This document shows, one piece after another, positions 27,001 through 30,000 of a DNA stretch of 41,532 bases. Position 1 is the first letter of the stretch. Every line of letters starts with the position of its first letter. The position numbers are program-made. This stretch comes from Polyangiales bacterium (lineage in GTDB: Bacteria > Myxococcota_A > Polyangia > Polyangiales > Houyiibacteriaceae). The stretch is from assembly GCA_045106895.1 (NCBI GenBank), contig JBGCFM010000036.1, positions 1 to 41,532 on the forward strand, in the 5' to 3' direction.

Positions 27001-30000
27001 GAGGGCTGAAGGTCGCGGGGAGTGAGAGACATCGACGCACCATGCATCGAATCGGCGGCTACGCCAGCTCGCTCAGGCGTGCGTCGTACTCAGAGGCGAG
27101 GACGGACCAGTCGTAGCGCGAATAATAGGGCGCAATAGACTGGCGTTCGGCGGCGGTGAAGCCGCCCGAACGGACAGCCTGCGCGAGGAGTTCCATGCGT
27201 CCGCTCGCGCTGTCATAGAGCTGGCGCGATGCGCTCTGAGGCTCGAGAAGCTCCGGGTAGGCCAAGCGATTCGGCAACACGCCCATCGCGCCGCCACGAA
27301 GAGCTTCCATGACGGCGATGCCGAAGAACTCGTGGCGTGCGGTACTAAGGACGATGTCGGCGCGCCGCACAAGGGCAGCGTACTCGGTCTCGCTTGCCCA
27401 CCCGAAGTGCACGACCTTCGGCCCTAGGAGCGCGCGAACCTCTTCGAAGAGCGGGATGCGTGGATTCGGGCGACCGCCGCAGATGGCGACGCGAAAATCG
27501 AAGTCCGTCTCGCCCAAGCTCCGCTCATGAAGCTCCGCCAACGCGTGCAGCATCGCTTCGGGGTTTTTGTCGTGACGCCAGCGTTGGTTCCACAAGATGA
27601 GCGGCGGGCCGTCGTTCTCGGAGAGACCAGGCGAGATATCGACGTCGACACCGACGTGGAGCACGGAAGACTTGGCGCGGACGTCGCACACAAAACGTGC
27701 GTGGTCGAAGTCTGGCGCCGCCGACACAAAGTCTGGCAGCGCCGCGAAGAGCGAGTCGCGGTGGTAGACGCTGTTGAAGAAGACATGGTCTGCGCAGAGC
27801 ATCGCTTTCCACTGCGTCATGCCCGCGGCGTGGCTGCGAGAGCCTTTCGCGGTGACCGGGTAGGTGAGCTGGTTCTCGTGCATGTAGAGAACCTGCGCCA
27901 CCCCGGCGAAGCGCCTTCGCGTGAGCGCGGAGAACGTGGCGAGATCGAGCATGCTCGTCGCCAGGATGAGGTCGGGTTTGTACTCGCCCGGGAGCGCGAG
28001 GGCTTTCTCCGCGAGGTCTGCGGCTCCGCCTAGCATGCGCCAGTGCCAGTGCGAGTCTGGGAGGGTCAGCGTGAGGAACTCGTGGGCGGAGTGCGCGCTG
28101 AGCCCCGCCGCCCACGCCCCGTGTGAGCCCCCGTGAAAGGGCGATAGAAGGAGGATGCGCATGCTAGCGGCGACCTTCGTGGCGATGCGCCGCCTCACTG
28201 CCTTTTTGTTGCCGGTGAGCCTGCACGTCGCGAGCATAGCGGATCGCTAGGACTTGTGACCCTCGCCAGGAGGGCAATGGACGACACCGCCGCTGGCCTA
28301 CCTGGACGAGCCACGTCTCAGGCAGAGGACGCGAATGATACTTCACACGCTAGGCCGATGCTTTCCTCGGTTTGGGGGACGCGACGAAACCGGCAAGCCG
28401 ATACGATTGGCGCTTGCGTCGCACTCAACCAACGTCGGGCAAGCGCGGCTGGGGAGCCCTCGCCTGTGGCGTGATCATCCTCGCCGGGTTTGCCGCGTAC
28501 ACCCAAGATGTGGTCCAGGACGTTTCCAATGAGAGAGAGGCGGTGACCCGGCGCGTGTCCGTGCTCATCGCACTGCAACGCGTGCAGTCCGCCTTCGATG
28601 GACTGCGTGAAGGCTCCGCCGAGCCTGCGGCTCTCGTCGAAGCGCGCGTCGCCGTAGAACGCGGGGCGGTGTCCCTCGCGGAGCTGGACGCTCTCGAGGG
28701 TGCCATCGATATGAGTCTTCGAGAGGTCACGGCGCTCGCGGATTCACGTCTCGCGGGGGAAGCCGAAGAAGACGCGGCCGCGACGGAGCACCTGGCGGTG
28801 AGTCGCGCCATCGGGGTGGTGCGTGCTGCCAACAGCGCAGGTTCGGAGCGTCTCGGCGTGAGCTGGCACCGGCTAGAGCGTTTGGCGTGGCTCAGCATTC
28901 TCTTCGCCGCGCTCATTCTGGGTCTGTTGATGCGGCTTCACCGAATCGCGCGGCGCCTCGCGTTGGCGCGGGAGACCACACGCGCGCAGTTGCTGCAAAG
29001 TGAGAGAGGTTTTCAGCGGGTCATCGAAGCCAGCCCTTATGGGATCGTGCTGCTGAAAGATGGCACAGTCGCCTACGCCAACTCCGTGGTCGGCCGAACG
29101 CTCGCGCGCCCCGGCGACGCGCTGCTGGGCCGGCGCCTGACGGAGTTTGTCATCGACGCGGAAGTGGTCCAGTCGGGCGTATTGGAAGACGGTGAGCATC
29201 GTTTTCACGCGGGCTCCGGTCATGCGCACGTCGAGGTCGTTCAGGGACCCGAGGTGCTTTTCGAGGGCGAGTCTCACCGTCTGTGTGTACTCCGCGATAT
29301 CAGTGAGAAGCGCGCGATGGAGTCTCAGCTTCGGCTCACGGACCGGCTCTCGGCCCTCGGTTCGGTGGCCGCGGGCATCGCCCACGAGATCAACAACCCC
29401 CTCGCTTATGTTCTCGCCAACGCGAACGTCTTGCGCAGCCAGATCGATGACCTGGAGCTCGGGCCCGTGGCGCGAGAGACGCTCACGGAGCTCACCGACG
29501 ACGTTCGTGAGGGCGCCTCCCGCGTGCGTGATGTCGTGCGCGGTCTGCGGACCCTCTCCCACCCATCGGATGAGGAGCTTGGGCCGGTGGATCTCGGCCC
29601 TGTGGTGGCGTCCGCCTACGCCATCGTGCACTCGGACCTCTCGCACCGCGCGGAGGTATCCGTGGACATACCGGCGTCGACGCCGACGGTGCGGGGGAAC
29701 GAAGCGCGCCTCGGTCAGGTGGTGCTCAATCTCCTCGTGAACGCGGCTCAAGCGTTCTCCGACGATCGCGGCAGCCCTGGCTGCGTCGAGGTGCGTGCGA
29801 CGCATGATGATTCTCGCGTGCGGCTCGTCATCTCCGACGATGGCCCAGGCATGTCCGAGGAGGTGCTCGCCCGCGTCTTCGAACCTTTCTTTACGACGAA
29901 GCCCATCGGCGAAGGAACGGGCCTGGGCCTCACCATTTGTCGCCGAATCATTCAGAACCTAGGCGGCGAGCTCGAGGTCAGTTCGACGCTCGGCGAGGGC

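What a model noticed while it worked through the whole genome (the two positions that open the first line are those of the whole stretch)
27059..28237. Full-length bacterial homolog of the animal tRNA-queuosine mannosyltransferase QTMAN
g04440 (392 aa) matches the animal tRNA-queuosine alpha-mannosyltransferase QTMAN/GTDC1 over its whole length, including the complete family-specific N-terminal domain, in a genome that also has Tgt, QueA, QueG, a preQ transporter and the Glu-Q synthetase. Boldest reading: this bacterium glycosylates queuosine-34 of its tRNA (mannosyl-Q or a related sugar-Q), a hypermodification so far known only from animals. New would be glyco-queuosine in bacteria and a small, soluble bacterial enzyme to study or use for it.
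Evidence so far: pfam.tsv: QTMAN_N PF12038 E 1.8e-52, model 1-168 of 168 at residues 27-197, followed by Glycos_transf_1 (205-334). Swiss-Prot: all five best hits are QTMAN of Drosophila (34.6% over 321 columns, E 6e-50), zebrafish, Xenopus, rat. PDB sequence search finds only generic GT4 enzymes at E 2e-4. Q pathway here: g05987 Tgt, g05988 QueA, g05350 QueG, g06214 queuosine-precursor transporter, g00650 glutamyl-Q tRNA(Asp) synthetase. Spread: PF12038 over its cut in 14 of 61 sampled Myxococcota_A genomes, this one included (0 of 5 others of this family), and in 0 of 14 model genomes incl. E. coli and B. subtilis. Papers on QTMAN/manQ seen (listing of call 152; passages of 10.64898/2026.06.28.735034, call [...]
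(Added by a program. Inside this text positions count along the whole contig: contig position 1 is position 1 of the stretch shown here. "Call 12" and the like, gene names such as g00115 and contig names such as C1 are that model's own, and its searches are not shown. The text may have been shortened before it was handed on; [...] marks where a part breaks off. The agent that wrote the report below was given it as the finding of a first reader that could run no searches.)

Follow-up and report, generated by a model that had tools for sequence, protein, structure and literature searches.

The report
Bacterial relative of queuosine mannosyltransferase
This bacterium carries an intact relative of the animal enzyme that puts mannose on the tRNA base queuosine, and in the genomes sampled such genes were found almost only where the queuosine-inserting enzyme is also present, so some bacteria probably sugar-coat queuosine, but this is untested and this copy is an atypical one.

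Summary
Confirmed: an intact single-copy GT-B glycosyltransferase (probably 367 aa, start 28162) with the whole QTMAN_N domain and the lysine essential in human QTMAN. The homology is not new: databases already name bacterial members, and this scan noted the family at least eight times on other DNA. Added here: in four genome samples, 86 of 86 carriers have the queuosine-inserting enzyme Tgt; 0 of 109 and 0 of 69 Tgt-negative genomes carry the gene. Fourteen Chloroflexota carriers lack QueA, but all have a Tgt with a Chlamydia-like pocket predicted to insert queuine directly. The nesting rests on few independent lineages and had no control family. Against: no queuosine gene beside the gene in 128 loci; GluQ-RS, which modifies the same hydroxyl, co-occurs; and this copy is genus-restricted, groups with Acidimicrobiia rather than with animals or its own phylum, and has lost two acidic residues invariant in animals (D110, E196). 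Best reading: it glycosylates Q34 of tRNA, sugar and tRNA unproven (0.55). No paper on bacterial glyco-queuosine turned up in ten searches; the 2023 discovery paper was unreadable. One LC-MS run or an E. coli expression test would decide.

The parts
27059..28162 (-). QTMAN-family GT-B (GT4-like) glycosyltransferase gene, probable true extent, 367 aa (P0002)
   Evidence: (AF2 pLDDT 88)
28163..28237 (-). 25-codon upstream extension of the called ORF, probably not translated
   Evidence: absent from the congener's ORF and from most rows of alignment A3; inference
27647..28159 (-). QTMAN_N (PF12038) N-terminal, acceptor-side domain: GGSH, W-x-W-R, Y-x-HENQLxYP; D110 of the family is Ser here
27236..27625 (-). 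Glycos_transf_1 C-terminal, donor-side domain: R194, K199, E278-FFG-xxxx-E286; E196 of the family is Arg here
27566..27568 (-). Codon for K199, counterpart of human QTMAN K296 (K296A abolishes manQ)
   Evidence: human length of 458 aa is recalled
26310..27047 (-). Downstream 245-aa gene 11 bases after the stop, weak C-terminal PcrA/UvrD tudor-like match; possibly co-transcribed but not a conserved partner
   Evidence: not beside the congener's copy within 1.5 kb

Best explanation
A soluble, stand-alone, retaining GT-B enzyme that transfers a hexose from a nucleotide-sugar (GDP-mannose by analogy) to a cyclopentene hydroxyl of queuosine-34 in tRNA, most likely tRNA-Asp(GUC). The cell would import preQ1 (YhhQ-type transporter), insert it with Tgt, finish Q with QueA and QueG, and this enzyme would then add the sugar, competing with or dividing the tRNA pool with GluQ-RS. 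Shown: intact gene, fold, catalytic residues, family membership, Q-pathway genes, co-occurrence. Inferred: the acceptor, the sugar, the tRNA, and expression.
For: Whole QTMAN_N domain. 61 positions are the same in at least 90% of 64 animal and at least 80% of 387 other (mostly unnamed, taken as bacterial) homologues, many in the acceptor-side domain; this protein keeps 55. K199 = human K296. Animals form one clade inside the bacterial diversity (unrooted). Tgt present in 22 of 22 carriers of the own phylum, 12 of 12 Actinomycetota (background 130 of 239), 43 of 43 Acidimicrobiia (background 84 of 153), 16 of 16 Chloroflexota: 86 distinct genomes. All 12 Actinomycetota carriers also have QueA at E<=1e-100 (background 112 of 239). 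The 14 QueA-less Chloroflexota carriers all have a Tgt reading GGSLG for GGLAVG, 13 with Leu at Z. mobilis 158, the signature given for queuine-inserting Chlamydia-type Tgt (PMC12301720); they fall in two separate places of the QTMAN tree. Single copy in nearly all carriers, no recurrent sugar-cluster neighbours, no match in phage or plasmid records: the pattern of a housekeeping enzyme. tRNA-Asp(GUC) with loop CUGUCAC is present; a ManC-like gene covers the pyrophosphorylase part of TIGR01479, below its cut-off.
Against: No biochemical test. The nesting is largely between lineages: in the Acidimicrobiia sample three strata (inferred from handle order) had 50 of 50, 41 of 50 and 3 of 49 Tgt, and within strata there is no significant association (p 1, 0.57, 1); no control gene family was run, and the Tgt background of the own phylum and of Chloroflexota was not measured in full. 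4 of 50 named MAG carriers showed no Tgt, though each keeps QueA or QueG. No Tgt, QueA, QueG, YhhQ, GluQ-RS or ManC gene in any of 128 loci or in the window. GluQ-RS over cut-off in 11 of 22 carriers against 21 of 129 non-carriers, although gluQ and manQ both sit on the allylic hydroxyl. This clade alone loses both D110 and an acid at 196 (0 of 383 others scored). GGSLG does not literally fit the GG[LS][AS]G motif quoted in PMC11570991, and Gly233 holds only if aligned without a gap. Most Q-making genomes lack the gene.
Confidence: 0.55

Rival explanations
1. The bacterial family glycosylates something unrelated to queuosine (a small molecule, lipid or glycan), animals repurposed it for tRNA, and the co-occurrence with Tgt reflects shared lineage.
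For: GT4 enzymes have very varied acceptors (fold neighbours: sucrose-phosphate synthase, BshA, PimA, MshA). Association vanishes within strata. No Q-gene neighbours. No bacterial glyco-Q reported.
Against: 0 of 109 and 0 of 69 Tgt-negative genomes carry it (samples overlap); retention after QueA loss with a queuine-type Tgt in two lineages; acceptor-side motifs shared with animals; no glycan-cluster context.
Confidence: 0.2
2. The family makes glyco-Q, but this genus's horizontally acquired copy has changed specificity (other acceptor) or is no longer active on Q.
For: Long branch inside Acidimicrobiia sequences (96-97% SH-aLRT, quick trees); grouping with the same-phylum sequences nearest to animals rejected (AU p 0.0007); found in 1 of 2 congeners, 0 of 16 other family members, 0 of 12 others of the order; D110S and E196 to R/A/N/S in all seven members of the clade.
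Against: 55 of 61 shared positions kept; six deviations is the 75th percentile of homologues; catalytic residues intact; 78% identity to the congener's intact copy; GC and GC3 like neighbours; the host has the Q pathway.
Confidence: 0.13
3. The acceptor is queuosine-related but not in tRNA: free queuine, queuosine or its monophosphate, glycosylated for storage, export or salvage control.
For: Would give the same co-occurrence with Tgt; carriers are enriched among queuine-salvaging Chloroflexota (14 of 59 QueA-less against 2 of 142); avoids the clash with GluQ-RS.
Against: The only characterised members act on tRNA-Asp; this genome has a preQ1-type Tgt (Val233) with QueA and QueG and so needs no free queuine.
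Confidence: 0.12

Closest known systems
Animal QTMAN (GTDC1), tRNA-queuosine alpha-mannosyltransferase (Zhao et al. 2023, not read; as cited in 10.64898/2026.06.28.735034 and PMC12518689)
   Same: PF12038 plus GT1 architecture, 55 of 61 family-wide positions, the essential lysine, host with Q34-tRNA-Asp genes.
   Different: About 30% identity; lacks the long vertebrate linker; D110 and E196 lost; basic KK before W-x-W-R replaced by SH; donor and acceptor untested; not the bacterial branch nearest to animals.
Bacterial DUF3524 / 'tRNA-queuosine alpha-mannosyltransferase domain-containing' proteins (PF12038)
   Same: Member: 2564 of 8000 scored candidates match; 1469 clusters at 50% identity with E<=1e-30; 44-49% identity to the nearest outside its clade.
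   Different: A divergent, genus-restricted clade; no member has a tested function in the papers searched.
Glutamyl-queuosine tRNA-Asp synthetase (GluQ-RS), the known bacterial Q hypermodification
   Same: Would decorate the same allylic hydroxyl of Q34 (PMC10690763, PMC12518689).
   Different: Unrelated enzyme; labile ester against a stable glycoside; the two genes co-occur rather than exclude each other.
GT4 retaining glycosyltransferases (MshA, PimA, BshA, sucrose-phosphate synthase)
   Same: GT-B fold (Z up to 29.6); R194, K199, E278, E286 align with MshA R231, K236, E316, E324 (their roles are recalled).
   Different: Only 12-20% identity; the N-terminal domain is QTMAN-specific.

Membership tests
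PF12038 / QTMAN sequence family | Complete QTMAN_N domain followed by a GT1 domain | tested here: met
   (Atlas features and structure, TM 0.92-0.93)
QTMAN (enzyme) | Lysine 296 needed for mannosylation | tested here: met
   K199 aligns with the RWEHDK lysine, which lies 162 residues from the end in four of six amniote proteins and is residue 296 of a 458-aa one; K296A inactive; human length recalled
QTMAN (enzyme) | Residues shared by animal and bacterial members | tested here: inconclusive
   55 of 61 kept; D110, S120, E196, L265, P294, L322 changed; their roles are unknown
QTMAN (enzyme) | Host can make Q34 in tRNA-Asp(GUC) | tested here: met
   genes for Tgt, QueA, QueG, YhhQ and tRNA-Asp; depends on salvage; gene presence only
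QTMAN (enzyme) | GDP-mannose is the donor, alpha linkage | not testable with these tools
   retaining GT-B fold fits an alpha product; ManC-like gene present below cut-off; donor cannot be read from sequence
QTMAN (enzyme) | Acceptor is the allylic hydroxyl of Q34 in tRNA-Asp only | not testable with these tools
   only indirect co-occurrence
GT4-like retaining GT-B enzyme | Two Rossmann domains, HE motif after beta4, R/K phosphate pair, E-x7-E motif | tested here: met
Cell-surface polysaccharide cluster glycosyltransferase | Lies among other glycosyltransferases, flippases, polymerases or sugar-nucleotide genes | tested here: not met
   window neighbours; of 63 recurrent neighbour ORF clusters from 80 loci one was a GT2, in 7 loci of one lineage
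Replacement for GluQ-RS | Mutual exclusion with GluQ-RS | tested here: not met
   11 of 22 carriers against 21 of 129 non-carriers over the cut-off

The most novel reading that the evidence does not exclude
Glycosyl-queuosine is an old bacterial tRNA modification, made by PF12038 enzymes in many phyla (own phylum, Chloroflexota, Actinomycetota, Rhodothermales, Acidobacteriota, Planctomycetota), from which animal QTMAN descends; some bacteria carry both gluQ and glyco-Q, and clades such as this one, with D110 and E196 changed, may add another sugar or act on another GUN tRNA. By analogy with the protection of human tRNA-Asp from cleavage it might shield anticodons from bacterial or phage anticodon nucleases.
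Probability: 0.6. Interest if true: 0.8.

Novelty: new member of a known kind. Interest (0 to 1): 0.5.

Why it matters
Sugar-modified queuosine is described only from animals and gluQ only from bacteria (PMC10690763, passages); a 2026 compendium of bacterial RNA modifications has no hit for manQ, mannosyl, QTMAN or glycosylat in the 300,000 characters held. If the family acts on Q-tRNA, bacteria have an unrecorded anticodon modification, thousands of database proteins get a real function, and a compact 367-aa enzyme offers a route to the first QTMAN structure (none found by sequence or fold). For that purpose the homologues that keep D110 and E196 and lie nearest to animals (L084, L093, L082, L095) are better candidates than this copy.

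Tried and rejected
Fusions: the 'longer' search gave two single-contig cases with unrelated C-terminal parts; the 784-codon frame in G004 has no sign of a second domain by eye; rejected as evidence. Conserved neighbours: lineage-specific housekeeping genes only; tRNA-Cys shortly downstream in 12 of 60 loci scanned (of 80), not a Q-tRNA. Viral copies: none in two scans of viral contigs, phage records or the top of the viral fold search, so the earlier phage note e1-5804470 could not be checked. Mutual exclusion with GluQ-RS: rejected. QueA as a marker failed in Chloroflexota and led to the Tgt-pocket analysis; there, six second-copy Tgt-like loci were not extracted by my filter and L162 was left out. 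Expression: no RNA holder was listed. Promoter scan: nothing above chance. The careful tree did not finish; quick trees were used. No complex prediction was sent: no protein partner is claimed. Papers not held: Zhao 2023 Cell, Yuan 2019 PNAS, the 2024 MMBR deazaguanine review. Ten paper searches (two of them on Tgt pockets) showed no paper on a bacterial QTMAN; DUF3524 0 papers, PF12038 and IPR022701 0 occurrences.

Full report
Observation. The ORF at 27059-28237 (-) is open for 392 codons and matches all 168 positions of Pfam QTMAN_N (E 4.2e-52) followed by Glycos_transf_1; no NCBIfam model comes near its cut-off. The probable start is the ATG at 28162, giving 367 aa (P0002): the congener's copy starts at the same MRILL. 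It is the only copy in a 7.7-Mb, 96% complete genome. AlphaFold gives a confident GT-B model (pLDDT 88) whose neighbours are generic retaining GT4/GT5 enzymes at 12-20% identity; no QTMAN structure was found. R194, K199, E278 and E286 align with MshA R231, K236, E316 and E324 (their donor-binding roles are recalled). Names of the other groups are taken from the record titles of L006 and L017.

Host pathway. Tgt and QueA lie side by side on contig C257; QueG, a YhhQ-type transporter and a 305-aa GluQ-RS are elsewhere. QueC was not found and QueF not over cut-off. The Tgt pocket reads GGFSVG (Val233, preQ1 type). tRNA-Asp, -Tyr, -His and -Asn genes with GUN anticodons are present. So Q34 can be made from salvaged preQ1; this is gene presence, not a measurement.

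The family. 2564 of 8000 scored candidates are homologues and a profile finds 1469 representatives at E<=1e-30. Sources already call them 'DUF3524 domain-containing' or 'tRNA-queuosine alpha-mannosyltransferase domain-containing', and Atlas clusters carry the QTMAN name. Prevalence: 22 of 151 genomes in the own phylum, 12 of 251 Actinomycetota, 43 of 196 Acidimicrobiia, 16 of 201 Chloroflexota, 0 of 14 control genomes; each count includes the centre genome, chosen as a carrier. One genome of these showed two matches (G708, one with a stop). No match in 50,697 phage or 72,556 plasmid records. Neighbourhoods of 80 loci are lineage-specific housekeeping genes; of 63 recurrent clusters sent to Pfam one was a GT2, in one lineage. 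No Tgt, QueA, QueG, YhhQ, GluQ-RS or ManC homologue lies in any of 128 loci (80 with up to 8 kb flanks, 48 with about 1.5 kb) or in the window.

Comparison with animals. Sixty-four named animal proteins were obtained. Sixty-one positions have the same residue in at least 90% of them and at least 80% of 387 other homologues (mostly unnamed, taken as bacterial; the set was gathered by likeness to this protein's profile, so the count leans that way); P0002 keeps 55. Human K296, whose change to Ala abolishes manQ (10.64898/2026.06.28.735034, passages), corresponds to K199: the RWEHDK lysine is residue 296 in a 458-aa reptile protein and 162 residues from the end in four of six amniote proteins checked (the human length of 458 is recalled). 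Lost are D110, S120, E196, L265, P294, L322. Six changes is the 75th percentile, but none of 383 other scorable homologues loses both D110 and an acid at 196, whereas all seven members of this clade do. In unrooted trees the animals are one clade (100%) nearest to L082, L084, L093, L095 (other families of the own phylum), L108, L110 and P0242 (96% FastTree; 80% IQ-TREE quick); P0002 ranks 93 of 166 by distance to animals. It sits on a long branch with Acidimicrobiia sequences L006 and L103 (96-97%); a clade with L082/L084/L093/L095 is rejected (AU p 0.0007, group chosen after seeing earlier trees). With its presence in 1 of 2 congeners, 0 of 16 other family members and 0 of 12 others of the order, a transfer into this genus is the simplest reading; long-branch attraction is not excluded, and composition is unremarkable.

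Co-occurrence test. If the acceptor is Q, carriers must be able to make it. Tgt was found in 22 of 22 carriers of the own phylum, 12 of 12 Actinomycetota (background 130 of 239; Fisher p 0.003 without the centre), 43 of 43 Acidimicrobiia (background 84 of 153; p 7e-10) and 16 of 16 Chloroflexota: 86 distinct genomes. No carrier was among 109 and 69 Tgt-negative genomes (the two samples overlap). All 12 Actinomycetota carriers have QueA at E<=1e-100 against 112 of 239 others (the threshold was chosen by me to set aside a weaker QueA-like group). Of 50 named MAG carriers tested (of 80), 46 had Tgt at E<=1e-20 (42 over cut-off); the four without keep QueA (G174, G175) or QueG (G158, G175, G193), which suggests missing contigs but does not show it. 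The p-values overstate: handles G702-G850 fall by number into three strata, which I take to be lineages, with 28, 5 and 0 carriers and 50 of 50, 41 of 50 and 3 of 49 Tgt; within strata nothing is significant. No control family was run. Genomes flagged unpublished (G428, G218, G371, G320; G611, G476, G608; G846) are non-carriers and enter only these background counts.

A result that first went against the reading. In Chloroflexota only 2 of 16 carriers have QueA, against 140 of 185 non-carriers. All 14 QueA-less carriers have a longer, divergent Tgt with GGSLG in place of GGLAVG, 13 with Leu at Z. mobilis position 158. PMC12301720 (passages) gives Gly233 and Leu158 as shared by the Chlamydia-type TGTs, of which the C. 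trachomatis enzyme inserts queuine directly. The motif quoted in PMC11570991 (section 15), GG[LS][AS]G, is not matched letter for letter, and aligners place a gap here, so the assignment is an inference. If right, these genomes still have Q with its diol. Thirteen form one QTMAN clade and G642 stands apart with another Tgt subtype: two lineages that dropped QueA yet kept a route to Q and kept the gene. Three of five QueA-less non-carriers have the same Tgt type and two have none, so this Tgt does not need the gene.

A result that stays against it. manQ and gluQ both occupy the allylic hydroxyl of Q (PMC12518689 and PMC10690763, abstracts and passages), yet GluQ-RS is over its cut-off in 11 of 22 carriers, this genome included, against 21 of 129 non-carriers (mostly one family). 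The two may share the tRNA pool, or the bacterial enzyme may use another tRNA or hydroxyl.

Mechanism. Most likely a retaining transfer of a hexose from a nucleotide-sugar held by R194, K199, E278 and E286 to a hydroxyl of Q34 presented in the N-terminal domain (W39, W41, R42, H95-P102), as in animal QTMAN, which uses GDP-mannose. Fold and residues are shown; acceptor, donor, tRNA and expression are inferred. Odds: glyco-Q on tRNA by this protein 0.55; unrelated acceptor 0.2; family yes but this copy changed 0.13; free queuine or queuosine 0.12.

Literature. Seen: search listings; abstract, outline and passages of 10.64898/2026.06.28.735034; passages of PMC11755703, PMC12518689, PMC10690763, PMC12301720, PMC13602947, PMC11705514, 10.64898/2026.03.22.713446; passages and one section of PMC11570991. 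None mentions a bacterial QTMAN or bacterial glyco-Q in what I saw. Not seen: Zhao et al. 2023, Yuan et al. 2019, the 2024 MMBR review, and all supplements (none were opened; those of bioRxiv preprints are closed); Zhao's paper or supplements may show bacterial homologues. Earlier notes of this scan report the same family on other DNA eight times, all untested; none for this place or sequence.

Verdict. A real, intact member of a catalogued family whose bacterial function is open. The prediction of bacterial glyco-queuosine is well founded and cheap to test, but it is not unique to this window, and this copy is an atypical representative. Novelty: new member of a known kind; interest 0.5.

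Noticed in passing
L142-L154, L156-L159 (Tgt loci of Chloroflexota handles): Free-living-sized Chloroflexota genomes (3.5-6.3 Mb) without QueA carry a Tgt with a Chlamydia-like pocket (GGSLG, mostly Leu158) and a 20-32 residue insert after DSGGFQVFSL, in two subtypes; predicts direct queuine salvage.
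   Followed up: partly
L160-L167: Many of the same genomes hold a second Tgt-like gene scoring just under the TIGR00430 cut-off (about 290-309 bits; L166 reads DDCT and GGWPLD), not DpdA or archaeal Tgt by NCBIfam; function unknown.
   Followed up: no
P0314, P0317, P0325, P0326, P0327, P0331: Crustacean QTMAN proteins from six genera carry N-terminal RRM domains: a real RNA-binding fusion or a recurrent gene-model join.
   Followed up: no
G000 contigs C74 (15452-19569), C125 (10050-12362), C270 (180-675): Dense arrays of divergent tRNA genes (17, 10 and 3), a second tRNA set including Asp, His, Asn, Tyr and odd anticodons such as Ile(TAT) and Val(AAC).
   Followed up: no
window 16461-18802 (-): ERG4/ERG24-family sterol reductase gene overlapping an SDR gene, suggesting sterol metabolism.
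   Followed up: no
Actinomycetota sample: About 46 genomes have only a weaker QueA-like gene (E 1e-42 to 1e-79), mostly without Tgt; some others have it beside canonical QueA.
   Followed up: no
window 26310-27047 (-): 245-aa gene just downstream, unknown N-terminal part and a weak PcrA/UvrD tudor-like tail (E 4.6e-5, under cut-off); single copy.
   Followed up: partly
L002, L014, L030, L038, L039, L044, L046-L048, L051, L054, L057: In 12 Chloroflexota loci a tRNA-Cys(GCA) gene, and in a similar set a cold-shock-domain gene, follows the QTMAN-like gene; probably lineage synteny.
   Followed up: partly
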